Below, piece by piece: positions 5,170 through 34,843 of a stretch of 64,000 nucleotides of DNA. The translations under genes were made by a program, and so were the position numbers. The DNA comes from Leucothrix mucor DSM 2157. GTDB taxonomy: Bacteria > Pseudomonadota > Gammaproteobacteria > Thiotrichales > Thiotrichaceae. Position 1 is the first letter of the stretch, and every line of letters starts with the position of its first letter. The stretch lies in the NCBI RefSeq assembly GCF_000419525.1, contig NZ_ATTE01000001.1, forward strand, positions 2,028,655-2,092,654, written 5' to 3'. A model generated the notes under the pieces. That model was not told where the DNA came from and searched no databases. It saw only the letters and a list, made by a program, of their open reading frames with translations.

Positions 5170-6099
<930 letters not shown>

Positions 6100-21469: not shown

Positions 21470-21502
21470 AAAATTGTAGGGCCGCCGGTATGGCAGCCCT
21501 CT
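21470..21502 (-). terminator. Possible terminator downstream of the large helicase gene
   Basis: Minus-strand hairpin gggctgccataccggcggccc followed by a weak T-run (tacaatttt). Confidence 0.3.
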
Positions 21503-21549
21503 TTGCAATGACTACTACTTCATAGCCTGAGCAGGCTACAAGGAAAAGC

Positions 21550-24500
21550 CTAATTAACAACCGTCAGGTACGTTGGCCATTGACCACTGTTAACCATTAA
21601 AGCCGTATCAAATACTCTTTGCATCTTCTCTTCCTGAGCATCTGCAGTGGCCGAAAAGTTAAAAAGCTGCTGCTGTTTAGTCTGCACTTTAGGATTCCAG
21701 TACCCCATTCCTTGGTCAAATAACAATGTACTTTTTCTTCCAGATGCCCACTCAATTTCCATGCTCCTGCCATGTTGTAAGTCGTAAGTCTTATCGAACA
21801 ACTGAACAGTAGGAGTTATTCCGAAGGCACCGGAGAACAACATCTCTATGCAATTGGTCAGATCACTATCTCTTATCCAGTCGTGCTTTATTTCACGACT
21901 CGGATATGCCGCATTCACCTTAGGTCTTAAGGTTCTAATCTCGACACTCTCCAACTCATCACCACTTAGAAGCTCAATAAATCCACTCAATAAAACAGCT
22001 GACCACGGTGACTTAAGGTATCGATCAGAGTAAACAATTGAACGCACCTGATCAGTCTTCAATAAATCAGAAAACTCTTTTGCATAAGACTCAAATAGCT
22101 TGGAAATTCGATCACTTACGCTACTGACAGGGCCGTTTAGTTCCTCAGTAATCACCATGACCGATGTACCAGATGCAGGCTTAATCCATAGAGAAGTATC
22201 AACAGGGTTAACTGCGATAGGTTCTAACTCATTTGAAGTTGCCCAAGTATCTGTCTTAGAAGATTGGAGCCAAGTGTCACCGGGTATCAAAGGCTCAGGG
22301 TTGCTACAGAAAAGCGTATGACACCCCTCCTCAGAAAAGACCTGCAGAATCAAGTTGGCATCACTACTGTGTATTGCTTTATCAAGCTCTACTATACGCA
22401 CCCCAAGCTCAGAAATTCGAGACAGATCCCTTTGAATCTCAGCTTCGAAGGCACTTGCTGATTCGATACATAGCTCTACACTTACTTTATCAACCAACTG
22501 CCAACGTAATACCTGATCTCTAAACCCAGCAAAACCTAAGTCCCATTGACTAATGTCGTTACTGAGTAAAAGACGAATCGTGACTTCAGAAGATTTACTT
22601 TTTAACGTATTAATAGATCTTCTGATGTACTGGTTGGCACCTCTGGAGCAATATGTAGCACCGGGAATATCTTTAAGGGCGTCCGGTAAAGATAAGAATG
22701 ACAGATAATCACTTTCTTCTAGCCACTGCTTTGCAGCTTTTCTGTCTAACTCTTCTTGCTCAACTCTACTGTCTTGTGATGCTAAGCAGGCAGAACACAC
22801 ATTGTCACAATCAGCTATACAATTTAGCTTTTCCTTTACTGATCCGATGAGACCGACCAAATCATCAAGACCTGCTAATACAAAACCAGCTCCACCGCTA
22901 GCCTGATCGAACACCTGAATAACTGAGCGTTTAGAGCCCGTTTCAAGATCTCGATTTACTCTATAACTGAACCCCATTTCAGAACTAGAGATCCCCAAAC
23001 GATCGGCTAGTGCATCACGAAGTGCTACCGCTATAGTTGTAGCAACAACCTTATCTTCAGCAGAATCACTCAGCCACTGCCCAGTTTTTGGATTCTTTAA
23101 ATATAGCTCTAAAACATCTGTCGTGATTTGGTAGCCAAGGTATATATTTGGTTTGACTGCCTCACCGGAACAGCTTTGTTCCTTATCACTGCTAACGCTC
23201 CCTCCGCCTATGGGCTTATGCATTTCATCAGGTTGCAAGGCTTTAGGCACATTACCTTCATTCGTCATTGACTCTGCTCGTCCACAACTCATGCATACCG
23301 CATAGCCTTTTTCGTGCTCTCCAGATGAATTATAAAAAACGCGACCGTCATTCCCATATTGAACATGACCGCAGCGAGCATCAGGCAGCGAAATTGACTC
23401 ACCAATTAATTGAATAAGTGGCTTCTCTACGCGAATAAATTTTTGTGATGAAATGTCATTGCCCGGAGAGTCATAAAAATCAGTCTGGAAACCTGCTGGA
23501 CGTAAGACCTGCTTTTGGTTTTTCGAAGAAATTTCAGTATCACAACCATCGCAAGTCAGGTTTTCACTATTGCTGTAAGCATTTTCTTTTAAGCCACTAG
23601 CCCCACAATTAGTACAACGCCAAGCAATATCAAACTTCTGAGCTTCATTGATTGCGCCTCCTGCATGCCATTGTAAACTAACACCAACTGAGCGATACAC
23701 TTTCCCATCAATAACGACTTGCGCACCAGGGGCATACTCCCTAATTGCAACATCTAACCCCCGCGAAGGCAGCTCTTTCCACTTTCCAGTATTATCCTCC
23801 CGTCCTTCATTTTCTTTCTGTTTTTGTTTTTGAATAAAGTCATCCATATTATAGGTATTCAGCGTAACAACATCTGTTGGAAAACCATAAACTGGAAGGA
23901 ATGTACGAACAGAAAGGTCTCGTAAAAGGTATTCACCCCCGTGCCTCGTAAGCTCTAAGGATAATGCCCTTTTATAAGCATTCTCCTTAGCATTCCCAAT
24001 GAGGAGGTTTAACTTATCAAAATCAGTTTTCCATCTGGTTTGAATACCCCCAATCAGGTCAGATGCATCAACAAAAAGCTCCTCTAAAGAACGCCCTGAG
24101 ATACCGGTGCCTGCTGTTAACTTAGCGACTGCAGAAGCGACCTCTCCTGAGTGTGAGGCTGATTCCAGCCAGTCTCTAAACCTCTGACATGGAGAGTTTT
24201 CCCCGCTATAAAACCAGCTCACTGTAAGTTTTATATAATCATCACTAGGCTCAATAAAGGTTCGAAGAAAGTATGAGAGTAAATATGAATTCACATGTCT
24301 TAATACAATCTTATCCGAGCTTAACGTAATACTGGGTGCAGGAATTTTTGTGACAAATGGCCATACCGGGTCATTGAAAGCCCGTCTATTATGTGGGTCC
24401 GCTTTGCATAAAGTGTATGCAATAGCCCTAGACTCGCTTCTTCGCCCGGCACGACCCGCTCGCTGTAAATAGTTTGCCGGATGAGGTGGAACATTATTCA

Positions 24501-27500
24501 TTACAACAGCTGATATGCCGCCAATATCTACCCCCATCTCCATAGTCGTTGAGCAGTTCAGAACATTAATTTTTCCTCGCTTAAATAGCTCTTCATATTC
24601 CTCCAGACGCTCTGAGGTTTGCTGTGCGGAGTGTTCTGCTGTTCTATAGTAAAATCCCCCCTCAACTGTTCTATCGCTAAGATCTGTCCACAGACTCTCG
24701 CTCCTTAGCTCATCAACCTCCTGATCTTGACTAACAAGTTCTCGGATTTGAACTAACTTTGGTACAGCACTGCTATTAGGTCTAAATTTAGACAGGTCGG
24801 GCAACTTTACTTTCTTACATCGGTAGTCGACATCAGTAAGGATTTTTCGTGGTAGATAAGGTGTTAAACCTCTGAAAGTAGTATCAATCAGGCGATTTGT
24901 TTCACTACAGACCCAAGCTTCTCTAGGTAATGAAAAGGTAATTTTATCCAATAGCAGTTGATAACCCTTATCAGTTCTCACCAAAATATTTACATTATCG
25001 CTAGTCAGAGCCTCCCAAGCAGACTTTAACCATAAATTCAGCTTGTTTTGGTCTTCCCTATTTGTCATGTCAAGGTTGCAACCAGTAGCTAAGAGCTTGA
25101 TTAATCTAGATGCACTATTCCCCTTAGCCTGAGGCCACATCTTTATTGTATTGCTCTCATCTGTATTTGATTCTGGCGGAAACAAGGATTTTGGTGAAAA
25201 CTTTGAGCCCATCCAGAACCTGATGGTGTTCTCAAGTTTCAAATAAGTATTTTCACGAACAAAGAAGTCTAATGTCACTTTAAGAAAATCTTTCCAGTCA
25301 CTTAGGCTTAACCGTCCTTCTAAACTAACATCTCCTTGTATTGGAGATATCGCTCTCGTTTGCTCCCAGTACTGAGGAGCATGAGATACATTCGATAAAC
25401 CCTCATAATTAACCTTAATAATTCCCAATGTCTCGGTGCTGTTCTGGTTTTTAGGTCGTCGCGCATACTCTCTTGCCAATAAAAGGCGGGCAATGTATCG
25501 ACCAGTATTATCCTCTGACAGAATCTTCCGGTTAATTGATATATTGTAATCAAGAATATATTGACTAACATCGGTACAACCGGAAAGCTCGCTTACCATA
25601 TCTTGCCAGTTCATTTCTGCAGCTTCTGGTCGTGAATCACTATCAATTAGCGCCTCAGCCTGCTTTCTAAAAACTGCAGCACGATCAGACATTCCTTTTA
25701 ACTCAAAGGTTTCAGCAAATGTTATCAAATCATCATAAGAAAACTCCCCCATGGGGGAGTTTGTGATCTTTGAGTCAACATTTTTTTGATTCTCTGCCAA
25801 GATCTCAAATACCAATCCTCTTAACCTTGACCGCTCAGCTTCCTGCTGCATTCTTACCGCCATTCTTGCCGTGCCTTGGCGACTATCGGTAAAGGTAATA
25901 AGTTTGCGTCCACGCCCAGGAAGTTCTTCAGGTGACTTTCCAGCACAATCCTCTTTATCTGGATCTGGGCAATATTCTAAGACCGTAGGAACCGCATTCG
26001 CAGTGTAAAAAGGAGATCCTAAGTATAATTGACGATACCAAGAACCAAACTTGGAGGACTTTGCGTCACAGCGGCTACATATAGACTCTGAATGATTAAT
26101 ATGGGAAAAGCTGATTGAAGAGTTACTCTGATTAAGTACACCAAACTTAAGGCTCTCAGTATCCAATGAGCTTTTGCCATACGATTCATTTTTACAGTTA
26201 ATTCCCGCAATGACTTTTTTCGTATCATTTGGTTGAATATCTGGAGCTGAGTCTGAACTACCTTCAAAATCCTCACTATCTGATTCAGAATTTAGTGAAA
26301 ACTCATCCTCAACATAAGTGCTGATTTGCTGAAGCTCTCCTCCCTTATCTTCGGCAAGTAAATGAGGCTCCTTACATCCCTTACAAAACGTTAGTTCGTA
26401 AACAGGTGACCCACATGAACAACGTGACTTATGAGCAGTGTAAATATTTCCAAACGACCACTTTCCTAAACTCTCTGGTTTGGCTGTACATTTGGGGTCA
26501 ATGCAAGCCCACAGACCATGTAACATCTGCTGAAAAAGATGAATCCGAAGCTTAAGAAAAGGTGCTGACTCGATACTAGGCTTTGTGCCTGTCATTAAAT
26601 CTAACCACCCAAGAAGCTCCTGCTGCTTCTCTGTAAGAGATTGTCCCTCCAACCTATCACCGAACTCATTTACCAGTTCAGACAAATCAAGTGGACGATT
26701 TTGTTTCACAGCACCATTTAAACTACCCTTAAGAATGTATGTTCTCAGGTCGTGAGACAGCCTGTTATTAATTAAAGCCGTGAACCTACTTTCTGAAACT
26801 TCAGAGCCGAGCTCTATCTGTGATATTTCATCAAAGCTTAAGTTAGATAACTTTTCAGGAAGCGAGATTTCATCCCAAATTCTCCTTCCACCAATAACAA
26901 CAACTTGATTTGTAGAAACCCCTGCCAAGTCTGCTAAGTACTGTGTCAACTGTTCCTTAGCATCCTCACCTGCGATAGTTGCAGAAGTGGCGACAAAACG
27001 AATATCTTTCGCGTCTCTGCCAAATGCCTCAACAACCCTACGTAGCAGTAATGAGATCTCAGCAGCTTGGGACCCAACATAGGTATGTGCTTCATCCAGA
27101 ACAATCCAGCGCAGAGATTTGGCTTCTTTTGAAATACTAAGGATTGGGCTATCTACTTGCCTCACCAACATGTATTCCAGCATGGTAGCGTTTGTCATTA
27201 AAATGGGGGCTGGTTCTTTTCTTAATAGCTCGCGAGAAAGAATCTGATTAGGCTTTTTCTTTTGCTCTTTTCTAACACGGTCTGACCTCTCCTCTGTTTT
27301 ACCGTTGTATAAGCAAAAACGTAGGTCGCTACCATAGGATTTAGTCCAGGCATCGAGCCTTTCCTGCTGAGAATTGATCAGTGCATTCAAAGGATAAAGA
27401 AATAGTGCTCTCACTCCGACCAGAGCACCCTTTTGATTAGCTCTTTCCTGAATTAAATCCTCAAGTATGGGAATCATGAAACACTCGGTCTTACCTGACC

Positions 27501-27867
27501 CCGTTCCACTTGTAATGACTGCTGACTTAGGCTGCTTATCTAACAGTGTTTCCCAAGCCTGAATTTGATGCTTGTAAGGCTTTAGACTTCTTGGAAAATC
27601 ATAGGCATCAGCTTTCTCCAAATTATCAAGCAAGCTTCTTGATAAAAGCGTTCCTTCTAAACTTGCCAATGATATTGCTGACGGCTCCCAGCCAAAAGTG
27701 TGCTCAAAAACGGGGGCTGCCAGAAAGCACCCATCAGAACCCAGCTCATCATTCATCTGGCTTGCAAGGTGCTGCCTGAGCTCTGCATTATTGATACCTA
27801 AAATACTTAATGTAGCCTCTCTGGTGCGACTGAGGCTTTGGTTAATTAAGTCCTTGAAGAAGTACAT
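21550..27867 (-). CDS. Very large SF2 DEAD/DEAH helicase with DUF1998-like Cys4 zinc-ribbon domain and unknown C-terminal region. DruE-like; candidate Druantia type III helicase.
   Basis: 2105 aa. Q-motif PYKHQIQAW, Walker A TSGTGSGKTE, DEAH box VLDEAHTY, motif III TSAT, motif VI QRAGRAGRR. Cys clusters CTNCG...CDGC and CMSCG resemble DUF1998/MrfA-like. About 40% GC versus about 48% in the flanks. Confidence 0.65.
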   Translation of the reverse strand: MYFFKDLINQSLSRTREATLSILGINNAELRQHLASQMNDELGSDGCFLAAPVFEHTFGWEPSAISLASLEGTLLSRSLLDNLEKADAYDFPRSLKPYKHQIQAWETLLDKQPKSAVITSGTGSGKTECFMIPILEDLIQERANQKGALVGVRALFLYPLNALINSQQERLDAWTKSYGSDLRFCLYNGKTEERSDRVRKEQKKKPNQILSRELLRKEPAPILMTNATMLEYMLVRQVDSPILSISKEAKSLRWIVLDEAHTYVGSQAAEISLLLRRVVEAFGRDAKDIRFVATSATIAGEDAKEQLTQYLADLAGVSTNQVVVIGGRRIWDEISLPEKLSNLSFDEISQIELGSEVSESRFTALINNRLSHDLRTYILKGSLNGAVKQNRPLDLSELVNEFGDRLEGQSLTEKQQELLGWLDLMTGTKPSIESAPFLKLRIHLFQQMLHGLWACIDPKCTAKPESLGKWSFGNIYTAHKSRCSCGSPVYELTFCKGCKEPHLLAEDKGGELQQISTYVEDEFSLNSESDSEDFEGSSDSAPDIQPNDTKKVIAGINCKNESYGKSSLDTESLKFGVLNQSNSSISFSHINHSESICSRCDAKSSKFGSWYRQLYLGSPFYTANAVPTVLEYCPDPDKEDCAGKSPEELPGRGRKLITFTDSRQGTARMAVRMQQEAERSRLRGLVFEILAENQKNVDSKITNSPMGEFSYDDLITFAETFELKGMSDRAAVFRKQAEALIDSDSRPEAAEMNWQDMVSELSGCTDVSQYILDYNISINRKILSEDNTGRYIARLLLAREYARRPKNQNSTETLGIIKVNYEGLSNVSHAPQYWEQTRAISPIQGDVSLEGRLSLSDWKDFLKVTLDFFVRENTYLKLENTIRFWMGSKFSPKSLFPPESNTDESNTIKMWPQAKGNSASRLIKLLATGCNLDMTNREDQNKLNLWLKSAWEALTSDNVNILVRTDKGYQLLLDKITFSLPREAWVCSETNRLIDTTFRGLTPYLPRKILTDVDYRCKKVKLPDLSKFRPNSSAVPKLVQIRELVSQDQEVDELRSESLWTDLSDRTVEGGFYYRTAEHSAQQTSERLEEYEELFKRGKINVLNCSTTMEMGVDIGGISAVVMNNVPPHPANYLQRAGRAGRRSESRAIAYTLCKADPHNRRAFNDPVWPFVTKIPAPSITLSSDKIVLRHVNSYLLSYFLRTFIEPSDDYIKLTVSWFYSGENSPCQRFRDWLESASHSGEVASAVAKLTAGTGISGRSLEELFVDASDLIGGIQTRWKTDFDKLNLLIGNAKENAYKRALSLELTRHGGEYLLRDLSVRTFLPVYGFPTDVVTLNTYNMDDFIQKQKQKENEGREDNTGKWKELPSRGLDVAIREYAPGAQVVIDGKVYRSVGVSLQWHAGGAINEAQKFDIAWRCTNCGASGLKENAYSNSENLTCDGCDTEISSKNQKQVLRPAGFQTDFYDSPGNDISSQKFIRVEKPLIQLIGESISLPDARCGHVQYGNDGRVFYNSSGEHEKGYAVCMSCGRAESMTNEGNVPKALQPDEMHKPIGGGSVSSDKEQSCSGEAVKPNIYLGYQITTDVLELYLKNPKTGQWLSDSAEDKVVATTIAVALRDALADRLGISSSEMGFSYRVNRDLETGSKRSVIQVFDQASGGAGFVLAGLDDLVGLIGSVKEKLNCIADCDNVCSACLASQDSRVEQEELDRKAAKQWLEESDYLSFLSLPDALKDIPGATYCSRGANQYIRRSINTLKSKSSEVTIRLLLSNDISQWDLGFAGFRDQVLRWQLVDKVSVELCIESASAFEAEIQRDLSRISELGVRIVELDKAIHSSDANLILQVFSEEGCHTLFCSNPEPLIPGDTWLQSSKTDTWATSNELEPIAVNPVDTSLWIKPASGTSVMVITEELNGPVSSVSDRISKLFESYAKEFSDLLKTDQVRSIVYSDRYLKSPWSAVLLSGFIELLSGDELESVEIRTLRPKVNAAYPSREIKHDWIRDSDLTNCIEMLFSGAFGITPTVQLFDKTYDLQHGRSMEIEWASGRKSTLLFDQGMGYWNPKVQTKQQQLFNFSATADAQEEKMQRVFDTALMVNSGQWPTYLTVVN

Positions 27868-27873
27868 AAGCGA

Positions 27874-30800
27874 TTAATCCTTATCGTTTTTATTAAGTAA
27901 ATATGAGGTAACAAGTGCATGAGCTGGCCGATACCAAGAGGTCCTATCAAAGTCTGATATTTTTCTGACAAAGAACTTTAGCTCGGCCATCGTTGAGTTC
28001 ATTTTTAAGTCAGCAATACTAGATTTTCCTGAGGTTACATAAGCCATAAATATAGGCAGGTAAACCACTGAATCTTCATATTTTTCAAGAGGCAGTGCCT
28101 TAATTTTCTTTGAAAAATCTTGCTGTTCAACCCACGCTGAAAGTTCACCATTCAAATACTTTGGCCAAAGAGTGTTTTGATAGCTTTCATGAAGAGTGTC
28201 CCTCCACATAGGCAATATCAAGTCAGGTGGCAGACTTGTAAGCACCTCATTATTGCCACTGCTAAGGTAGTGTTCCACGCTCTCAAAGCCAGAAACGATG
28301 TTCGAAAGAACGGCTTTTCTGTTATCAACCATGTCATTAATAACAAATTCTGGAAGCCCCATTCCCCTCAGCCAACGATCATAATTTTTATAGGCTTGGC
28401 TCCAAATAGGTAAAGAAATACTTTCCCAGATTATCGACAACTCATCACGCATCCGGTCACTAAATAACTCATCAACCTCAAGGCGTAAAATCGATACTGC
28501 TAAGGTTAGTGGATTGCGTGAAAGTGAAAGCCAACTCTCAAAGGTAGACAGTGGTAGGTGATCAAATTTTCTTTTAATATCATCTAAATATTGCCACCCA
28601 CTGTGATCAAGATCACTTCCCATTTCGGCAATTTGGTCATCTATTACATGTGGATTATTCTGAGGGTGATAAAGCCGCGCAGCCTCATGTAAGGAGTGAA
28701 TTTTAGATCCGGAAGAATAGGTATTCGAAGCCGGTTGGCCGACTAGCAGATATGGCCTGAACTTGACTCTAGACTCTGCTTCTGGATAGAGCAACCAAGG
28801 CCCATCTCTATACATGGAGTCATCTGTGACAAATCGGCCAGTACCCACTCCCTGACTTGTTAGTTCACGCAATTCAATGGGGGTTTGCTTGGGATCAGAA
28901 AGGAGCATTGCGGAGACATTTACTCCACTAGCCACTCTACCAGTCGTGAAGTCAGATGCAGTGAAAACCTCTGTGCTATCTTTTGCGATAGACCCGTTAT
29001 ATCTTTTAATATTGACTGTCATTAAGCGACGCTGAGGGCTTTCAACCGTTAGCTTGACATAGGCATCCTGACTTTCCATCGCAGCCAATATCTGTCGTAA
29101 ATCATTTTGATACGCAAACAAATTAACAGAAAGCGGAACATCACCCGATTTGAACAACCGGTAATCAAGATAAACGTTAGTGCTGAAGTTCTTATCCTGC
29201 AACTCCATTCTCAGATGAAAGGACTGTGTTTCACCTACAGAAAATAGCAATATACTCAAGCCAATCAGATCTTCTGGGATCAAACTTTCGGACGTCAATA
29301 TATTGTTACTGGAGTCCAATAATCGCGCTCCCTCATAAGGAAAAGGTAAGCGTAGTATTACTGGCTCAAGAAATTCACCACCTTTAACACTTAATTGAAG
29401 ATTAGAGGGTGGTACTGCGTCTCGATAAGAAAGTGAAATAACCGATCGCCCCTCAATAATCTCTAAGCGGGAGCTGATATTTTCACCCATGACGCCAAAC
29501 TTACACTCACCTCCCCCCATAATTTCAAGGCGAGCTGGGCGAGTAGCATCACCGGCAAACAAACGGACTTTAAAGCTTTCAGGTAGTACACCGAATTTTC
29601 TCCTGAATAGAATTTCACCAGAGCTATTTTTAAGCGTGTAATTAAAGACCCCACCTATCTCACGCCGGCTTTTAGCAACTAACTCTCCATTAATATACTC
29701 ATAAACAGAACCTTCATTGCTCTTTTGGCACAGCTTTGGCCATCCCAGATAGACAGCGTTAGGGAGGGAATCAAAATCAAGCAGCTTTCCATCCAATGCA
29801 AACGTTTGAGTTACAGAAGGATGATTCAAACGAACTCTAAACTTATCACTTCCCAGAAAGATTGATGTCTCCTGGCTAAGCAAAACCCAGCGAACACCAT
29901 CAGTTTGTATATGCTTTATTTCTACACTTTCCGCTGGAGTAAAGTCAGCATTAGGTGGAAGCCGCACTAAAACTGCTGGTTGCCTCAAGGAACAACTCGC
30001 ATTTGCAAGCAGTTCCTGATCACCACTTACCTCAAAAATGACCGGTGCAGTTTCAAAGTCAATAGAGCTGGCATCAAACTGAGTTTGATAAATGGCAACA
30101 CCGTTATCCATCAAAGCCAAAGAAAGTGACTCACTACAGTCTCTTCTTTTTAACACTACTGGTGCTCTCGGTAGCCGTACTTTCAGCTCAGTACCATTTT
30201 GTACTTCACCATAGACAATGCTACCCCGAGCAATAAGCACACTGCCCTCATAGAATGCCATTTCAAGACGAGTACTGCTTAGAGCCGAAATATCAACCGG
30301 AAAGGTTACCGCAATAGGCGTAATGAGTTGTGCCTGTAAATCCCAGTGACCTTCAACTTGTCCAGCAATACTGTGCGTACACCTGAAATCATTCGGTGTC
30401 TTTTTAATGATTTCATTTTCTGCCTGACGCTTACTTGCATCACGCAACCAGTCCGTAATCAGGTTTTTAGCATTAGCTTCATTAAGTGGTAGAGGAAAAT
30501 CTTTTTTCCAGCGGGGCTCAGCTTTATCTAAAAATTCAACCGGATCTATTTCTTGCTTCAAGCTGGGATACTTTCCTGCGAGATGCATCAGCTGTTCAAT
30601 CACACCTGCAAGCAATTGTCGGGTTTCAAGGTTGTGAAAGGTATAAGGCAAGTCTTGCTCATAACTGGCAATCATGTCACTCGTCGTGCCTAAACTGGCT
30701 TTATTGCTATGGTAATTCTTCAAACCCTTTCTGATTACACGCCCAAAGCCGTGTGTTTCGCTTTTTATCAGCGGCCAAGGCAGCCCGCCCTCCAGAAATA

Positions 30801-31176
30801 ATGAGCCAATAAAATTCCGACCTTTTTCTGTACGACGTATTGGCCTTTTCCAAAAGCTTTCTAAGCCATAACTTATGAGTTCACTTCTTAGACCTTGCTT
30901 AAAATCACAACCTAATGACTTATCTGCCCACTCCCACGACCAGCTACCCTCTTCTGCTCCGTAGTCGCGCCGAAACCTTTCTGCTACAAATAAACAATAG
31001 AGCTCAGCCCAATGCTTACCTTTGATCGGGTCTGTAGCGAATCTAATATTGGCGATTAACTTATTTTTCAGGCTTTGAAATTCCTCAAATGTTACGTGAT
31101 AACTATACAAAGGCTTACCAGTTGGCCCAGCAAAACATTCACGAATAAAGAGAAACTCACTCAACCAAGCCTTCAT
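27874..31176 (-). CDS. Large protein of unknown function upstream of the helicase. DruH-like; candidate Druantia type III partner.
   Basis: 1100 aa with no recognisable motif. Its stop is 6 nt before the helicase start. Size and order (unknown ~1000-aa protein then DUF1998 helicase) match the type III Druantia architecture. Low GC. Confidence 0.45.
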   Translation of the reverse strand: MKAWLSEFLFIRECFAGPTGKPLYSYHVTFEEFQSLKNKLIANIRFATDPIKGKHWAELYCLFVAERFRRDYGAEEGSWSWEWADKSLGCDFKQGLRSELISYGLESFWKRPIRRTEKGRNFIGSLFLEGGLPWPLIKSETHGFGRVIRKGLKNYHSNKASLGTTSDMIASYEQDLPYTFHNLETRQLLAGVIEQLMHLAGKYPSLKQEIDPVEFLDKAEPRWKKDFPLPLNEANAKNLITDWLRDASKRQAENEIIKKTPNDFRCTHSIAGQVEGHWDLQAQLITPIAVTFPVDISALSSTRLEMAFYEGSVLIARGSIVYGEVQNGTELKVRLPRAPVVLKRRDCSESLSLALMDNGVAIYQTQFDASSIDFETAPVIFEVSGDQELLANASCSLRQPAVLVRLPPNADFTPAESVEIKHIQTDGVRWVLLSQETSIFLGSDKFRVRLNHPSVTQTFALDGKLLDFDSLPNAVYLGWPKLCQKSNEGSVYEYINGELVAKSRREIGGVFNYTLKNSSGEILFRRKFGVLPESFKVRLFAGDATRPARLEIMGGGECKFGVMGENISSRLEIIEGRSVISLSYRDAVPPSNLQLSVKGGEFLEPVILRLPFPYEGARLLDSSNNILTSESLIPEDLIGLSILLFSVGETQSFHLRMELQDKNFSTNVYLDYRLFKSGDVPLSVNLFAYQNDLRQILAAMESQDAYVKLTVESPQRRLMTVNIKRYNGSIAKDSTEVFTASDFTTGRVASGVNVSAMLLSDPKQTPIELRELTSQGVGTGRFVTDDSMYRDGPWLLYPEAESRVKFRPYLLVGQPASNTYSSGSKIHSLHEAARLYHPQNNPHVIDDQIAEMGSDLDHSGWQYLDDIKRKFDHLPLSTFESWLSLSRNPLTLAVSILRLEVDELFSDRMRDELSIIWESISLPIWSQAYKNYDRWLRGMGLPEFVINDMVDNRKAVLSNIVSGFESVEHYLSSGNNEVLTSLPPDLILPMWRDTLHESYQNTLWPKYLNGELSAWVEQQDFSKKIKALPLEKYEDSVVYLPIFMAYVTSGKSSIADLKMNSTMAELKFFVRKISDFDRTSWYRPAHALVTSYLLNKNDKD

Positions 31177-31427
31177 AAACTAGATCCTCGGCTTATTTTC
31201 AAGCCAACTGTTTTCATATAACAGCAACAATAAGACGCCAAAAACTACTAATATTTGCCGCTTCTAATAAATTATCAACAATAGAACATACCCCTTTCAA
31301 AAAAAATAATAAACAATGAGTTAAGGACATAAAATTTAATATGTAATCAAACAAATAAGTGGTACCTCTTATGAGCTCTAAGATTTGATCTCTTAAAGAG
31401 TAAGAAATACCACCTATAATGGCTCTA

Positions 31428-32573
31428 TCATTCCAAGCGCACCGTGCTATTCATCAGTCCTTCCAAGCCGCCATACACCTTCAGCTCACAAATATTGCTG
31501 GTAATACTTTCCAGTACTTCCAGCTCTTTCAAGCGCAATAGCACAGGATTACCTTCCATCAATTTGGCCGTATTATGCAGCGAACGCGTGGCCTGAGTTT
31601 CTTCACGACGACGAATCAAATTCGCTTCAGCCTGCTTTTCAGCCGCTACTACTTCAATCAGGATTTCCTTCATATCACCTGGTAACACGATATCTCGCAC
31701 GCCGACCTTTTTCAGGTCAAGGCCATAGGCTGACACACTCTCCAGCACTAGCTCATGCACTTGCTGGTTTAGCAGGTTTTTATCCGCCAACAATTGGTCC
31801 AGCGTTTGAGTCGAGACCACGCTGCGCAATGCCAGCTGCAGTTCACGATACAAAAACGCCTCATGATCTTTAATCGCATCACGGACTTTAATGGCATCCA
31901 ATACCTGCCACGTCGCTGAGACATTAATCCGCAGGCTCACCTTGTCCTTGGTTAAAATCTCCTGACCATTCACCTCCATGGTCTGCAAGCGCATATCCAT
32001 CATCTGCAAACTCACATACGGATTAACCAACCACCAGCCATGCTGGCCTTCTTGCAAAACGGCATGACGCACACCGCTCACCAATAAGAAACCGATATGT
32101 CCTTCCGGCACATAGCCCAGCGTGTACAAGCAAGTCACCAGGTGGCTTTTTAGCAATGGCTCACGGGTTTTCGCCAACTCATCCGCCAAGCTAGCGCTCA
32201 ACAGATAGCTATTGCTGATATCCAACGTGCGAAACTCCAACTCGCGCTTACCTTTCCAATACGCGCCACTACGACCTGGTGCGGCGATGTCTTTAAGCAC
32301 GCCGGCTTCGTAAAACATTCCAATAGCTTGCGGGCCAGTTTCCCAGCTCATCACATGCTCTGTGAATGCCTCCGGGTGCAACTCGACCAAGTGCAATAAA
32401 TCCTGATCGACGCGTCGAAACTCATTACTCACCGCATACTGCTGAATACTGATCTCACCGCGTAAATTCCAATGTTCATAACAGCCCGGCGTTAAAATCG
32501 CCTGAAACTGCTGATTTTTAAACAGCAATCCGCGGTGTGATTCCGGAATAATTGTTTTCATTTTGAATAACAT
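31428..32573 (-). CDS. SPFH/band 7 (stomatin/prohibitin/flotillin-like) domain protein
   Basis: 381 aa. Band-7 core (VSLRINVSATWQV...KKVGVRDIVLPGDMKEI) followed by a coiled-coil region EVVAAEKQAEANLIRRREETQA. Confidence 0.75.
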   Translation of the reverse strand: MLFKMKTIIPESHRGLLFKNQQFQAILTPGCYEHWNLRGEISIQQYAVSNEFRRVDQDLLHLVELHPEAFTEHVMSWETGPQAIGMFYEAGVLKDIAAPGRSGAYWKGKRELEFRTLDISNSYLLSASLADELAKTREPLLKSHLVTCLYTLGYVPEGHIGFLLVSGVRHAVLQEGQHGWWLVNPYVSLQMMDMRLQTMEVNGQEILTKDKVSLRINVSATWQVLDAIKVRDAIKDHEAFLYRELQLALRSVVSTQTLDQLLADKNLLNQQVHELVLESVSAYGLDLKKVGVRDIVLPGDMKEILIEVVAAEKQAEANLIRRREETQATRSLHNTAKLMEGNPVLLRLKELEVLESITSNICELKVYGGLEGLMNSTVRLE

Positions 32574-32860
32574 GCTGCTTCTCCTGCAAAATTCATAAAT
32601 AAAGTCGGCATAGCCTTCACACCTGAACGAGCGTCGATATTTACACTAAACGGGGCTAAGCGCCGGATGCCTCATAACAAGGTATTGACGGTCACTTGCC
32701 GCACTTAATGGACCCATACCAAAGGTCATTCAATGTGCTGGATGCCTGCTCAGTGCCGCCGACTCAGTGTGTTGCCACGCTGCGCCCGCTTTACCTAACA
32801 AACATCCCGAAGGCTATTGCCTAGTGGCCCTTTCGGGCAGTTAAGACAACTGGGAGAGTT

Positions 32861-32935
32861 GTTTTGCTAGTTGGAATCGAACCAACAACCGATTGATGAT
32901 GAGTCAATTGCTCTACCGCTTGAGCTATAACAAAT
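32861..32935 (-). ncRNA. tRNA-like element with CAT anticodon-like loop. It could be a degenerate tRNA-Met/Ile2 or a YrlA-type Y-RNA tRNA-mimic module.
   Basis: The minus strand folds as a cloverleaf: acceptor TTTGTTA/TAGCAAA (one G-U pair), D-stem GCTC/GAGC, anticodon stem ATTGA/TCAAT with loop CTCATCA, T-arm GTTGG-TTCGATT-CCAAC. It is non-canonical: U at position 1, C at position 37 and no encoded CCA. It sits between a sigma-54 promoter and the SPFH gene. Confidence 0.5.
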
Positions 32936-33067
32936 TGCCGTGCTTTTCGCACAGCGTGCTATGACCCTACACAGCCGATACACAGCCACTTTCAGAGAAA
33001 GCCTGTGTCAGGCAGGTATACAGAACCTGCTCCGCTGGCCAATGCAGTTAACAGTCATAAATAATCT

Positions 33068-33086
33068 ATTGCACGGCACGTGCCAA
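33068..33086 (-). promoter_or_regulatory. Sigma-54 (-24/-12) promoter divergent from rtcR, embedded in the palindrome GGCACGTGCC
   Basis: Minus strand reads TTGGCACG-TGCC-GTGCAAT. GG and GC elements have the correct spacing (TGGCACG-N4-TTGCA consensus) with one mismatch. It lies about 150 nt upstream of the rtcR start, on the opposite strand. Confidence 0.55.
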
Positions 33087-33238
33087 CTTTAGAATTAAAA
33101 TCATAAATAACTGAAAATTAAGGATTATTTATTTTTCATCCTCGAAAGGCCAAAACACCAAAATTGAACTAATTATTTTTTCAGATAAATTTATACGGTT
33201 TTAGATATACTGAATTAAATCGAACTTAGGGTTACATT

Positions 33239-34843
33239 ATGACCAGTAACGTCATCATCAGTATTTTGGGTAGTAAGCTTGATCATCGTGGCTTTGGTCA
33301 GAAGCGATTTGAACGCTGGCGACCCAATGTTGCACTAGCTCAGCACCCTGAGTTACCCATTGATGAGTTTATTCTGCTGTATCACCCCGACCATGAAGCG
33401 CTGGCTAAATTAACGCTGGGAGATATCAAAGAGGTGTCGCCTAGCACCAAGCTCACCGGTATTACGCTTAATATCGACGACCCTTGGAATTTTGAGCAGG
33501 TGTATGGCGAGCTGCACGATGTGATGAAGCGCATCTCTTTCGACCCTGAAAATCACAATTACTACACGCACATCACTACCGGTACGCATGTCGCGCAGAT
33601 CTGTTTGTACCTGTTAACCGAGGCGCGCTTTATTCCCGGTAAGTTACTGCAATCCTCACCACTCAAAGAAGGCAATGGCGGCTCTTATCAAATTATTGAT
33701 TTGGATTTATCCTGCTATGATCAAATTGCGTCACGCTTTGCGGCCGAGGCGCGCCAAGGGGTTGACCATTTAAAAGGCGGCATCCAAACCCGCAATGCCG
33801 CTTTTAATAAAATGATGGCGCAGCTGGAGCAGGTATCGATTCGCTCGACCGCACCGATTTTACTCACTGGCCCGACCGGTGCCGGTAAATCGCAATTGGC
33901 GCGTCGTATTTATGCACTGAAGCAGAAGCGCGGTTTGGTCAGCGCTGATCTGGTGGAAGTTAACTGCGCGACCTTACGCGGCGACAATGCTATGTCCGCG
34001 CTATTTGGCCATGTAAAAGGGGCCTTTACCGGTGCCTTAAATGCGCGTACCGGCCTGCTGCGTGAAGCCAATAAAGGTCTGTTATTTCTCGATGAAATTG
34101 GCGAGCTGGGGCTGGATGAGCAGGCCATGTTACTACGGGCGATTGAGGATAAGGTCTTTATGCCGCTGGGCTCCGATCGCAATATCAGTAGCGATTTTCA
34201 ACTGATTGCCGGCACCAATCGCAACCTATTCCAACGCGTTAGCGAAGGCTTGTTCCGCGAAGATTTACTGGCGCGTATCAATCTTTGGACCTATGAAATC
34301 CCCTCGCTAAAAGCGCGGCAGGAAGATTTAGACCCCAATATCGACTATGAACTGCAGCAGTTCACCCATAAAGCGGGCCACAATGTGCGCTTCAATAAAA
34401 CTGCGCGCAAGCAATACCTTGATTTTGCCCACTCCGGCGAAGCCAGCTGGCGCGCCAATTTCCGCGATTTAAACTCCAGCATGACGCGCATGGCGACACT
34501 GGCCAGCGGTGGGCGCATTACCGAAGCAATCATTGCCGATGAAATCGTACGCTTGCAATCAGACTGGGCAAACCATGAAACAAAAGCTTCAGGCAGCACC
34601 TCGGTAGCTGACACTCTGCAAAGCATTTTATCCGATGCGGCAATTGCCGAAATCGACCTGTTTGATCACGCACAACTGGCCCATGTCATCGAAATTTGTC
34701 GCGGTAGTAAAAGCATGGCCGAGGCCGGTCGTAAACTGTTTAATGTGAGCCGAGAGCGCCGTAGCAGCAGCAATGACAGCAACCGGCTCAAAGTCTATCT
34801 CAACAAATTTGACTTAGAGTTTAAGCAGCTCACGGCCAACTGA
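33239..34843 (+). CDS. rtcR: Sigma-54-dependent transcriptional activator RtcR (N-terminal CARF-like domain + AAA+ + HTH)
   Basis: 534 aa. It is near-collinear with E. coli RtcR across all domains (WRPNV, HITTGTHVAQIC, LLTGPTGAGKSQLARRI, VEVNCATLRGDNAMSALFGHVKGAFTGA, GNFRDL). Confidence 0.9.
   Translation: MTSNVIISILGSKLDHRGFGQKRFERWRPNVALAQHPELPIDEFILLYHPDHEALAKLTLGDIKEVSPSTKLTGITLNIDDPWNFEQVYGELHDVMKRISFDPENHNYYTHITTGTHVAQICLYLLTEARFIPGKLLQSSPLKEGNGGSYQIIDLDLSCYDQIASRFAAEARQGVDHLKGGIQTRNAAFNKMMAQLEQVSIRSTAPILLTGPTGAGKSQLARRIYALKQKRGLVSADLVEVNCATLRGDNAMSALFGHVKGAFTGALNARTGLLREANKGLLFLDEIGELGLDEQAMLLRAIEDKVFMPLGSDRNISSDFQLIAGTNRNLFQRVSEGLFREDLLARINLWTYEIPSLKARQEDLDPNIDYELQQFTHKAGHNVRFNKTARKQYLDFAHSGEASWRANFRDLNSSMTRMATLASGGRITEAIIADEIVRLQSDWANHETKASGSTSVADTLQSILSDAAIAEIDLFDHAQLAHVIEICRGSKSMAEAGRKLFNVSRERRSSSNDSNRLKVYLNKFDLEFKQLTAN

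What the first reader, a model, noticed from the sequence alone, without database searches (positions are those of the whole stretch)
33060..33090. Sigma-54 promoter embedded in a perfect 10-bp palindrome (GGCACGTGCC) between rtcR and the tRNA-like element
Minus strand: TTGGCACG-TGCC-GTGCAAT fits the -24 GG / -12 GC consensus (TGGCACG-N4-TTGCA) with one mismatch. The -24 element is part of the palindrome GGCAC|GTGCC, so the plus strand also carries GGCAC. This is the only strong sigma-54-like site I found in the window, and it is in the orientation expected for an RtcR target.
Basis: seen in the sequence. Interest (0 to 1): 0.6.

Follow-up and report, generated by a model that had tools for sequence, protein, structure and literature searches.

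The report
RtcR sigma-54 promoter driving structured RNA
The motif is a genuine, evolutionarily conserved sigma-54 promoter of the RNA-damage regulator RtcR (an ordinary member of a known kind; its palindrome is a coincidence), but here it fires straight into a ~0.5-kb structured RNA with a tRNA-like core and an SPFH/slipin gene, with no RNA ligase and with a Druantia III phage-defence cassette inserted just downstream.

Summary
The minus strand at 33086-33068 reads TTGGCACGTGCCGTGCAAT, with GG at -25/-24, GC at -13/-12 and one mismatch to TGGCACG-N4-TTGCW. GGCACGTGCC (33075-33084) is unique in the window.

A PWM built from 47 other RtcR loci scores this site 21.3 bits; the next best site in the window scores 13.4 and the best shuffle 19.3. 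The same motif sits at a fixed distance from rtcR in 50 of 52 related loci and in E. coli K-12 (PrtcBA). The -24/-12 columns are invariant, the spacer is not. The closest relatives read GGCACGTGCT and GGCACACCCC, so the palindrome is incidental.

The window is Leucothrix mucor. The promoter does not precede rtcBA. Predicted +1 (~33059) is the first base of a ~490-nt structured RNA with strong covariation: a 5' three-way junction, the band-7-associated tRNA-like element, and a 215-nt 3' domain. An SPFH/slipin gene follows. Eighteen loci carry the same promoter directly in front of this RNA.

A 9.9-kb Druantia type III cassette (druH, druE) is inserted between the slipin stop codon and its ancestral terminator, so read-through is possible but unproven.

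Verdict: an ordinary RtcR promoter in a mildly unusual operon.

The parts
33239..34843 (+). rtcR. It encodes a sigma-54 enhancer-binding protein with CARF-like RtcR, AAA+ and HTH domains, and is transcribed divergently from the promoter.
   Evidence: Pfam PF06956 (6.8e-70) and PF00158. NCBIfam NF038308 at 765 bits against a cut-off of 650. GAFTGA and GPTGAGKS motifs in the translation. Identical to WP_022951996.1 of Leucothrix mucor.
33174..33207 (-). Candidate RtcR upstream activating sequence. It is a degenerate array with 10-bp phasing: TATC-N6-CGTA-N6-TATC-N6-AATA. It lies 89-122 nt upstream of the T of TGGCAC.
   Evidence: Related loci carry GATA-N6-TATC-N6-GATA at the same distance from the promoter, both next to rtcR and at stand-alone promoters. 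E. coli has GATA/TATC repeats at the same place. Binding by RtcR is inferred, not shown.
33087..33173 (-). AT-rich spacer between the UAS and the promoter. This is where IHF bends the DNA in E. coli and in many related loci.
   Evidence: Related loci have AATCAAnnnnTTA about 40 nt upstream of TGGCAC. PMC9650030 mentions an IHF site in the E. coli rtc promoter. I found no good WATCAANNNNTTR match in the window itself by reading.
33068..33086 (-). Sigma-54 promoter core TTGGCACGTGCCGTGCAAT. GG is at 33084-33083 (-25/-24) and GC at 33072-33071 (-13/-12).
   Evidence: PWM score 21.3 bits, best in the window.
33075..33084 (.). Perfect palindrome GGCACGTGCC. It is formed by the -24 element and the non-conserved spacer, and is judged incidental.
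   Evidence: Unique in the window. Not conserved in L095 (GGCACGTGCT), L001 (GGCACACCCC) or any of about 65 other promoters of the family.
33056..33060 (-). Predicted transcription start. +1 is about 33059, which is 12 nt downstream of the C at -12.
   Evidence: This is arithmetic from the -12 GC. The covariance model of the 5' RNA domain starts at 33060. In 12 of 18 loci with the same arrangement, the T at -26 lies 24-26 nt before the model start. No experimental TSS is available.
32958..33060 (-). 5' domain of the structured RNA. It is a three-way junction with a near-invariant hairpin GCAGGU-UCUGUAU-ACCUGC and the motif CUGACAC...GUGUAUCGG.
   Evidence: RNAalifold on 7 sequences gives 9 of 29 pairs with compensatory changes. 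CM R1 finds it once per locus in 76 of 84 loci. On those sequences 91.4% of cells are paired against 28-40% in the slid controls, and 0 of 500 shuffles reach this.
32937..32955 (-). Lineage-specific extra hairpin GCUGUGC-GAAAA-GCACGGC. It is present in the window and in L095 and absent from L001.
32861..32934 (-). tRNA-like element. [quoted passage not shown] It has the full cloverleaf, an AU-rich acceptor stem, a CAU 'anticodon' with C at position 37, and no encoded CCA.
   Evidence: Rfam tRNA 62.5 bits and ARAGORN. One or two such elements lie upstream of slipin in 81 of 83 loci. Their anticodons are wildly variable and often impossible, so they do not decode. The name comes from bioRxiv 10.1101/312249.
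32607..32821 (-). 3' domain of the structured RNA. It is closed by the long-range helix GGCAAUAGCCUUC (32821-32809) / GAAGGCUAUGCC (32618-32607) and contains the GUG-GCAA-CAC hairpin. The GCCC-GAAA-GGGC (GNRA) hairpin lies just 5' of it.
   Evidence: 76 pairs were counted on 7 sequences. 92.1% of cells are paired against 34-39% in the slid controls, and 41 pairs change on both sides against 5-12. None of 500 shuffles reaches these values. The MFE z-score of the whole leader is -4.2. Rfam has no match beyond the tRNA part.
31428..32573 (-). SPFH/Band-7 'slipin family' gene (381 aa). It is the protein partner of the RNA. The RBS AGGAGAA lies 25-30 nt after the RNA's closing helix.
   Evidence: Pfam PF01145 at 1.1e-26. 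More than 7000 relatives were found. In 80 genome loci the gene follows the RNA, usually downstream of rtcB and rtcR.
21512..31427 (-). Insertion of about 9.9 kb carrying a Druantia type III defence cassette. It contains a 250-nt gap of 30% GC (31177-31427), druH/yjiT (27874-31176) and druE/yjiV (21550-27867).
   Evidence: PADLOC DruH3 scores 1208 bits and DruE3 2412 bits. NCBIfam YjiT_fam scores 810 bits. The cassette is absent from the syntenic relative L095, which runs slipin to aldo-keto reductase to EAL. GC is 42% against 49-51% in the neighbours. A sigma-70-like TTGAAA-18-GATAAT lies at 31300-31271. No terminator-like hairpin was found on the minus strand in the gap.
21478..21500 (-). 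Intrinsic-terminator-like hairpin AGGGCUGCC-AUACC-GGCGGCCCU followed by a T-rich tail. It corresponds to the hairpin that directly follows slipin in L095, and here it lies after druE.

Best explanation
This is the RtcR-dependent sigma-54 promoter of the Leucothrix mucor Rtc locus. The proposed mechanism has six steps; the basis of each is marked.

1. Sigma-54 RNA polymerase sits as a closed complex on TTGGCAC-N5-GTGCAAT (33086-33068, minus strand).

2. RtcR, encoded divergently, binds the GATA/TATC array about 90-120 bp upstream, next to its own start codon. This is inferred from conservation.

3. RtcR is switched on when its CARF-like domain binds damaged RNA. [quoted passage not shown] This is established for Salmonella and E. 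coli and assumed here.

4. AAA+ ATP hydrolysis, acting through the GAFTGA loop, opens the promoter.

5. Transcription starts at about 33059, on the first nucleotide of a ~490-nt structured RNA. The RNA has a 5' three-way junction, a tRNA-like core and a 3' domain. Transcription continues into the SPFH/slipin gene. The structure, its conservation and the fixed promoter-to-RNA spacing are shown here. The transcript itself is inferred.

6. No terminator was found between slipin and the inserted Druantia III genes, and the ancestral slipin terminator now lies after druE. Some RtcR-driven transcription probably reads through into druH-druE. This rests on weak inference, at about 40-50%. The cassette also carries its own sigma-70-like promoter.

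The 10-bp palindrome has no role. It arises because the variable 5-nt spacer happens to be GTGCC.
For: - Motif and rank.
- Regulator identity and motifs.
- Conservation of -24/-12 and of its position in 50 of 52 rtcR loci.
- Same layout in E. coli K-12. PMC9650030 describes a UAS, an IHF site and a -24/-12 element for that promoter. PMC7790460 gives the RtcR mechanism.
- The same promoter and the same UAS sit directly in front of the RNA in 18 loci, with the T at -26 lying 24-26 nt before the RNA model start.
- RNA structure and covariation.
- Druantia insertion between the slipin stop and the terminator.
Against: - There are no expression data, so the TSS and the dependence on rpoN and rtcR are untested.
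- The -12 element reads GTGCA rather than TTGCA, and the PWM score (21.3 bits) is below the family median of 26.5.
- The UAS in the window is degenerate (CGTA and AATA in place of GATA), and no clear IHF consensus is present.
- In E. coli, RtcR activation needs RtcA and RtcB (PMC9650030, abstract). Neither is encoded here, so the activation route may differ.
- For step 6, the 250-nt untranslated AT-rich gap is a plausible Rho-termination site. DruHE cassettes elsewhere stand alone without RtcR.
Confidence: 0.85

Rival explanations
1. The palindrome GGCACGTGCC is itself a functional operator. A dimeric regulator, acting for example as a repressor, would bind it, overlap the -24 element and compete with sigma-54.
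For: It is a perfect 10-bp palindrome that is unique in the window. An 8-bp core, GCACGTGC, survives in L095.
Against: L001 has the same operon and synteny but reads GGCACACCCC. None of about 65 other promoters of the family has a spacer complementary to the -24 element, and the spacer columns carry 0.2-0.5 bits. Five of the ten bases are simply the conserved GGCAC.
Confidence: 0.04
2. The motif is a chance match. The RNA and slipin would be transcribed from a sigma-70 promoter, for example TTGGCC-18-AATAAT at 33153-33124.
For: The loose consensus search finds as many hits as chance predicts. A weak sigma-70-like site (9 of 12) lies upstream.
Against: The site is the best PWM hit in the window and scores above all shuffles. 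The -24/-12 columns are invariant and the position is fixed across 50 loci and E. coli. In 18 loci the spacing to the RNA 5' end is fixed. The sigma-70-like site is no better than shuffles give (15 found against 21 expected).
Confidence: 0.04
3. It is a real sigma-54 promoter that serves only the RNA and slipin. The Druantia cassette would be transcriptionally independent, with its own sigma-70 promoter at 31300-31271 and Rho-dependent termination in the gap. The adjacency would be an accident of insertion into a permissive site.
For: - DruH-DruE cassettes in five other contexts have no RtcR or slipin neighbour.
- None of the 80 genome-collection slipin loci, nor L001-L005, carries druH or druE.
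- The cassette differs in GC content and brings a 250-nt AT-rich upstream region with a 10-of-12 sigma-70 match.
- L095 lacks the cassette.
Against: No intrinsic terminator lies between slipin and druH, and the ancestral terminator now follows druE. RtcR homologues heading operons that contain Druantia III are reported in PMC11090510. The same junction is found in independent samples, L093 and L094.
Confidence: 0.5
4. It is a sigma-54 promoter, but a different enhancer-binding protein activates it, not the adjacent RtcR.
For: Several stand-alone promoter-RNA-slipin modules have no rtcR within 8 kb. Enhancer-binding proteins can act in trans.
Against: The stand-alone modules carry the same GATA-N6-TATC-N6-GATA array, at the same distance, as the promoters that abut rtcR. 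In the window rtcR is the divergent neighbour, and the array overlaps its 5' end.
Confidence: 0.05

Closest known systems
E. coli K-12 rtcBA promoter (PrtcBA), sigma-54 and RtcR dependent (Genschik et al. 1998, as cited in PMC7790460; PMC9650030)
   Same: - rtcR is divergent.
- The extended motif is shared: E. coli has CTGGCACGACGGTTGCAAT, the window has TTGGCACGTGCCGTGCAAT.
- GATA/TATC repeats lie next to the rtcR start codon.
- An AT-rich region lies between the repeats and the promoter.
- The distance from the rtcR ATG is about 134 nt in E. coli and 153 nt in the window.
   Different: - The E. coli promoter drives rtcB and rtcA. The window's promoter drives neither.
- The window's -12 element has G in place of the first T.
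- The UAS half-sites are degenerate.
- No clear IHF consensus is present.
Salmonella rsr-yrlBA-rtcBA operon (PMC7790460; PMC4201824)
   Same: An RtcR/sigma-54 promoter drives an operon that combines a non-coding RNA with a tRNA-like domain (YrlA) and an RNA-binding or scaffold protein. The inducer is damaged tRNA.
   Different: The protein partner here is an SPFH/slipin, not Ro60/Rsr. The RNA is not a Y RNA: Rfam gives no hit other than tRNA. It is far larger, at about 490 nt with two extra structured domains. There is no RtcB or RtcA.
RtcB-associated Band-7 protein with 'b7a-tRNA' (Burroughs and Aravind 2016, as summarised in bioRxiv 10.1101/312249)
   Same: A Band-7/SPFH gene is preceded by a predicted tRNA-like RNA within an Rtc locus. 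81 of 83 loci examined here show this pairing.
   Different: RtcB is missing from the locus in the window, L095 and L001. The tRNA-like part is embedded in conserved 5' and 3' structured domains. I could not find these domains described, but the 2016 paper is not in the library, so I could not check it. In 18 loci the RNA has its own sigma-54 promoter.
RtcR-homologue-headed defence 'superoperons' with Type I RM, Druantia III and CoCoNuTs (PMC11090510)
   Same: An RtcR-family CARF regulator lies upstream of a run of same-direction genes that includes Druantia type III. That paper proposes induction of defence genes by RNA fragments with cyclic-phosphate ends.
   Different: There the RtcR homologue lies at the 5' end and, as described, usually in the same orientation, and a CoCoNuT (McrBC-type) system is the core. 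Here rtcR is divergent and orthologous to the RNA-repair RtcR (NF038308 above its cut-off). There is no CoCoNuT, and Druantia is a recent single insertion that is absent from sister strains.
Druantia type III (DruH-DruE; YjiT/YjiV) defence system (Doron et al. 2018, as cited in PMC11090510; PADLOC models)
   Same: Full-length matches to the DruH3 and DruE3 models. The two genes are 6 nt apart, as in other cassettes.
   Different: This is the only instance found here that lies inside an Rtc/slipin transcription unit.

Membership tests
Sigma-54 (RpoN) dependent promoter | Conserved GG and GC dinucleotides at -24 and -12 with the fixed spacing TGGCAC-N5-TTGC | tested here: met
   TGGCACGTGCCGTGCA matches 11 of 12 specified positions, with GG and GC intact. 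The family PWM scores it 21.3 bits, the best site in the window.
Sigma-54 (RpoN) dependent promoter | A cognate AAA+ enhancer-binding protein with a GAFTGA loop | tested here: met
   RtcR is the divergent neighbour. It has PF00158, GAFTGA and Walker A.
Sigma-54 (RpoN) dependent promoter | An upstream activating sequence about 80-150 bp upstream | tested here: inconclusive
   The conserved GATA-N6-TATC-N6-GATA array of related loci has a degenerate counterpart at 33174-33207. Binding has not been shown.
Sigma-54 (RpoN) dependent promoter | Transcription start about 12 nt downstream of the GC, dependent on rpoN | not testable with these tools
   No transcript data are available. Indirect support: the conserved RNA begins at the predicted +1 in the window and in 17 other loci.
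RtcR regulon promoter (orthologue of PrtcBA) | Located in the rtcR-divergent intergenic region at a conserved offset | tested here: met
   The offset is +153 nt in the window and +154 in L001. It is +131 to +136 in 33 loci and about +134 in E. coli.
RtcR regulon promoter (orthologue of PrtcBA) | Drives the RNA repair enzymes RtcB and/or RtcA | tested here: not met
   tblastn finds no RtcB anywhere in the 64-kb window. The downstream genes are SPFH, DruH and DruE. No L. mucor RtcB appears among the best 120 relatives of the L. arctica RtcB; this is suggestive only.
Band-7 / b7a-tRNA module of Rtc loci | An SPFH/Band-7 gene immediately preceded by a tRNA-like non-coding element | tested here: met
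   (81 of 83 loci).
Band-7 / b7a-tRNA module of Rtc loci | Adjacency to RtcB | tested here: not met
   The window, L095 and L001 lack rtcB between rtcR and the RNA.
Genuine (decoding) tRNA gene | Conserved anticodon identity, a purine at position 37, and a CCA end or a normal processing context | tested here: not met
   Position 37 is C, no CCA is encoded, and the acceptor stem is AU-rich. The anticodon is CAT in the window, TTT in L095 and CTT in L001. Across loci there are more than 40 different, often impossible, anticodons and abnormal loops.
Druantia type III | Adjacent DruH and DruE (a helicase of about 2100 aa with DEAD, Helicase_C and MZB domains) | tested here: met
   PADLOC scores DruH3 at 1208 bits and DruE3 at 2412 bits, both full length. 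Pfam finds DEAD, Helicase_C and MZB.
RtcR-headed CoCoNuT superoperon (PMC11090510) | Presence of a CoCoNuT (McrBC-derived, coiled-coil nuclease) system downstream of the RtcR homologue | tested here: not met
   The operon ends at the terminator after druE. The next genes are an aldo-keto reductase and an EAL protein on the other strand.

The most novel reading that the evidence does not exclude
The RtcR/sigma-54 promoter, the ~0.5-kb structured RNA with its tRNA-like core, and slipin may form a self-contained RNA-damage-responsive module that works without RtcB. Eighteen loci have the promoter directly on the RNA, several of them with no rtcB nearby. The tRNA-like core could act as a decoy or sentinel substrate for anticodon nucleases, and its cleavage products could feed back on the RtcR CARF domain. 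In L. mucor this module has captured Druantia III inside its transcription unit. A DNA-targeting anti-phage system would then be induced by tRNA damage. That would be a natural, minimal example of the 'echeloned' RtcR-controlled defence proposed for CoCoNuT superoperons.
Probability: 0.15. Interest if true: 0.7.

Novelty: new member of a known kind. Interest (0 to 1): 0.35.

Why it matters
The promoter itself adds little. It is one more RtcR/sigma-54 promoter, and its palindrome can be dismissed.

Its value is as an anchor. It fixes the 5' end of a large, strongly covarying RNA that Rfam does not hold beyond the tRNA-like core. It also shows that this RNA and its SPFH/slipin partner are direct RtcR targets, even in genomes or loci without the RtcB ligase.

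That makes the unvalidated 'b7a-tRNA' prediction experimentally approachable. The promoter, the inducer class and the transcript boundaries are now defined.

It also offers a simple natural test of whether RtcR-type RNA-damage sensing can drive a phage-defence system, here Druantia III.

Tried and rejected
- A loose IUPAC search (TGGCACNNNNNTTGCW, one mismatch) gave 3 hits against 3.98 expected. It is uninformative alone, so I replaced it with a family PWM.
- blastn of the locus against E. coli genomes matched only the AAA+ core of rtcR. It was useful only for fetching PrtcBA.
- The exact look-up of the slipin protein found nothing. I used relatives instead.
- Burroughs and Aravind 2016 could not be read by DOI or by PMC id. 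What it says about b7a-tRNA is taken second-hand from bioRxiv 10.1101/312249.
- I looked for an IHF consensus (WATCAANNNNTTR) in 33087-33173 on both strands by eye and found no good match. Related loci and E. coli have one about 40 nt upstream of TGGCAC.
- A plus-strand sigma-54 promoter using the other palindrome arm is rejected, because no GC lies at the -12 distance.
- The idea that the tRNA-like element is a real tRNA-Met gene is rejected (see the membership test).
- The idea that Druantia III is habitually linked to slipin or RtcR is rejected. Five other DruHE contexts and about 85 other slipin loci (L001-L085) show no such link.
- The idea that the window's layout arose simply by deleting rtcB from the canonical layout is left open. 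Stand-alone promoter-RNA-slipin modules exist, so either history is possible.
- Literature searches for the larger RNA found no description.
Full report
**1. The observation**

The minus strand at 33086-33068 reads TTGGCACGTGCCGTGCAAT. GG lies at 33084/33083 and GC at 33072/33071, at the spacing that defines sigma-54 promoters (TGGCAC-N5-TTGC). The only departure from TGGCACG-N4-TTGCW is G for T at 33074.

GGCACGTGCC (33075-33084) is a perfect palindrome and occurs once in the window, against 0.06 expected. The plus-strand copy of GGCAC has no GC at the -12 distance, so only the minus strand carries a promoter-like site.

A loose consensus search is not significant on its own: it gives 3 hits against 3.98 expected. 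I therefore built a 26-nt PWM from the promoters of 47 other RtcR loci and scanned both strands of the window.
- This site scores 21.3 bits.
- The next best site scores 13.4 bits.
- Twenty shuffled windows gave maxima averaging 13.3 and never above 19.3.

**2. Context**

Exact protein look-ups identify the window as the Leucothrix mucor chromosome.

The divergent gene at 33239-34843 is a full-length RtcR. It scores 765 bits against NCBIfam NF038308 (cut-off 650). It has the RtcR/CARF-like domain and the sigma-54 interaction domain, plus the GAFTGA and Walker A motifs.

Downstream of the motif on the minus strand lie, in order:
- a tRNA-like element at 32934-32861 (Rfam tRNA 62.5 bits);
- an SPFH/Band-7 'slipin' gene at 32573-31428;
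- a 1100-aa DruH/YjiT protein at 31176-27874;
- a 2105-aa DruE helicase at 27867-21550.

The last two are full-length matches to the PADLOC Druantia type III models. No RtcB or RtcA is encoded in the window.

**3. Comparative test of the promoter**

Slipin relatives are numerous. I fetched 80 loci from genome assemblies and several from metagenomes. The usual layout is rtcR, then divergently rtcB, a spacer of about 600 nt with one or two tRNA-like elements, and slipin.

In 50 of 52 loci with rtcR, a motif with at least 9 of 12 matches and intact GG and GC lies on the strand leaving rtcR.
- In 33 of them it lies 131-136 nt from the rtcR start codon.
- In the window the distance is 153 nt, and in its relative L001 it is 154 nt.
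- In an ungapped stack of those 33 regions, the TGGCA and TTGC..T columns carry 1.8-2.0 bits.
- The five spacer columns carry 0.2-0.5 bits, and the surrounding DNA is essentially unconserved.

The E. coli K-12 rtcR-rtcB intergenic region has CTGGCACGACGGTTGCAAT at the same offset. The literature treats this promoter as sigma-54 and RtcR dependent, with a UAS and an IHF site (PMC7790460; PMC9650030).

The window's site is therefore the positional and sequence counterpart of PrtcBA.

**4. The palindrome**

Five of its ten bases are the conserved GGCAC. The other five are the variable spacer.

The two closest relatives, with the same operon and flanking synteny, read GGCACGTGCT (L095) and GGCACACCCC (L001). 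None of the other promoters of the family has a self-complementary spacer. I conclude that the palindrome is a coincidence of this lineage.

**5. Upstream elements**

Next to the rtcR start codon, related loci carry GATA-N6-TATC-N6-GATA about 90-115 nt upstream of TGGCAC. Many also have AATCAAnnnnTTA (IHF-like) about 40 nt upstream. E. coli has both.

The window has a degenerate array in the same phase: TATC (33207-33204), N6, CGTA, N6, TATC (33187-33184), N6, AATA (33177-33174). I found no clear IHF consensus in the AT-rich 33087-33173.

That RtcR binds this array is an inference from conservation.

**6. What the promoter transcribes**

Predicted +1 is about 33059. The stretch from there to the slipin start codon (about 490 nt) is more conserved among the window, L095 and L001 than the promoter-upstream DNA is. 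It folds far better than shuffles do (z = -4.2).

*5' domain (33060-32958).* It is a three-way junction with a near-invariant hairpin.
- Nine of 29 pairs show compensatory changes in seven sequences.
- A covariance model finds it exactly once, upstream of slipin, in 76 of 84 loci.
- On those 76 sequences 91.4% of cells are paired, against 28-40% when partners are slid.
- There are 458 double-change cells against 38-88, and no shuffle out of 500 reaches this.
- That alignment is fitted to the model, which favours the structure.

*tRNA-like element.* It follows the 5' domain. In 81 of 83 loci one or two such elements are present. They show more than 40 different 'anticodons', including impossible ones and abnormal loops. 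Here position 37 is C and no CCA is encoded. These are not decoding tRNAs.

They correspond to the 'band 7-associated tRNA' predicted by Burroughs and Aravind 2016. I know that paper only through bioRxiv 10.1101/312249, which states that the RNA had not been validated experimentally.

*3' domain (32821-32607).* It is closed by a 12-pair long-range helix.
- It has 76 predicted pairs.
- On an independent MAFFT alignment of seven sequences, 92.1% of cells are paired against 34-39% in the slid controls.
- 41 pairs change on both sides, against 5-12, and 0 of 500 shuffles reach this.

Rfam 15 matches only the tRNA-like part. Literature searches found no description of the flanking domains. I could not read the 2016 paper itself.

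**7. The promoter belongs to the RNA**

I scanned the 750 nt upstream of slipin in 83 loci with the PWM. Strong sigma-54 sites (13-31 bits) lie directly in front of the RNA in 18 loci that also have the covariance-model hit.
- These include Thiothrix and Thiolinea loci with no rtcR or rtcB adjacent.
- One locus, L022, has a second such promoter in front of rtcB.
- The T at -26 lies 24-26 nt before the model's first position in 12 of the 18, so the RNA begins at the predicted +1.
- These stand-alone promoters carry the same GATA-N6-TATC-N6-GATA array at the same distance.

The window is one instance of a recurrent module: UAS, sigma-54 promoter, structured RNA, slipin. Whether the window's layout arose by loss of rtcB or by placement of such a module next to rtcR cannot be decided.

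Among the best 120 relatives of the Leucothrix arctica RtcB there are sequences from L. sargassi and Leucothrix sp., but none from L. mucor. This suggests, without proving, that this RtcB lineage is absent from the genome.

**8. The Druantia cassette**

L095 (slipin 92% identical) aligns with the window from rtcR to the slipin stop codon (31432). It then jumps to 21475 and continues through the aldo-keto reductase and EAL genes.

The window therefore carries an insertion of about 9.9 kb. It has 42% GC against 49-51% in the neighbours, and its 250-nt leader has 30% GC.

The hairpin that follows slipin in L095 corresponds to the terminator-like hairpin at 21500-21478, which now follows druE. No terminator-like hairpin lies on the minus strand between slipin and druH. 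A sigma-70-like TTGAAA-18-GATAAT lies at 31300-31271.

The same junction occurs in two other samples, L093 and L094. DruH-DruE cassettes in five other contexts have no RtcR or slipin neighbours, and none of about 85 other slipin loci (L001-L085) has Druantia.

The adjacency is thus a recent, lineage-specific insertion. Read-through from the sigma-54 promoter is structurally possible, but I rate it no better than even.

A published survey reports RtcR homologues at the head of gene arrays that include Druantia III and CoCoNuTs (PMC11090510). That makes the idea plausible. This locus differs in that rtcR is divergent and orthologous to the RNA-repair RtcR, and there is no CoCoNuT.

**9. Mechanism and verdict**

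The best-supported reading has four steps.
1. RtcR bound at 33174-33207 is activated by damaged RNA. The ligand is known for Salmonella and assumed here.
2. RtcR remodels sigma-54 holoenzyme at 33086-33068.
3. Transcription starts at about 33059 on the first base of the structured RNA.
4. Transcription continues into slipin and possibly into druH-druE.

As a promoter this is a new member of a well-known kind, so the overall interest is modest. The more interesting items are by-products:
- the size and covariation of the RNA around the 'b7a-tRNA';
- its direct sigma-54 promoters;
- the absence of RtcB;
- the Druantia insertion inside the transcription unit.

Noticed in passing
window 32607-33060 (minus strand); also L001 9536-10000, L095 661-1148, and 76 of 84 loci examined: The tRNA-like element is the core of a ~490-nt structured RNA with a conserved 5' three-way-junction domain and a 215-nt 3' domain. 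Both show strong covariation. Rfam 15 matches only the tRNA part, and I found no description of the flanking domains.
   Followed up: yes
window 21512-31427: A Druantia type III cassette (druH 27874-31176, druE 21550-27867) of about 9.9 kb and lower GC is inserted exactly between the slipin stop codon and its ancestral terminator hairpin (21478-21500). It is absent from the syntenic relative L095 and present in samples L093 and L094.
   Followed up: yes
L007, L010, L014, L016, L019, L020, L021, L028, L076 and others (about 750 nt upstream of slipin): Stand-alone modules of UAS (GATA-N6-TATC-N6-GATA), sigma-54 promoter, structured RNA and slipin occur with no rtcR or rtcB detected in the fetched locus (up to 8 kb on each side where the contig allowed). 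L022 has two such promoters, one before rtcB and one before the RNA.
   Followed up: partly
83 loci, region upstream of slipin: The tRNA-like elements (one in 36 loci, two in 45) carry more than 40 different 'anticodons'. These include A34 anticodons, a stop anticodon, and 6- or 8-nt loops. Close relatives differ: CAT in the window, TTT in L095, CTT in L001. The anticodon loop appears free to drift or is diversifying.
   Followed up: partly
whole genome of Leucothrix mucor (outside the window): No L. mucor protein appears among the best 120 relatives of the Leucothrix arctica RtcB, whereas L. sargassi and Leucothrix sp. do. RtcR may be retained in a genome that has lost this RtcB lineage.
   Followed up: partly
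L001 11176-12063: In the 84%-identical relative, the DNA downstream of slipin holds different convergent genes (195 aa and at least 98 aa, no Pfam hit on record) rather than Druantia or the aldo-keto reductase. The slipin 3' flank looks like a variable insertion site.
   Followed up: no
L063 3817-4827 (Leucothrix arctica): A 336-aa ORF lies between the rtcR-proximal sigma-54 promoter and rtcB, so the Rtc operon has an extra first gene in this congener. I did not identify it.
   Followed up: no
window 5279-5304 (+) and 12327-12302 (-): These are the second and third best hits of the RtcR-family sigma-54 PWM (13.4 and 12.9 bits). Both fall within the range reached by shuffled sequence, so they are probably chance matches.
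   Followed up: no
window 31177-31427 (minus strand): The 250-nt gap before druH has 30% GC and a sigma-70-like TTGAAA-18-GATAAT (31300-31271). It has no sequence similarity to the upstream regions of five other DruHE cassettes.
   Followed up: partly
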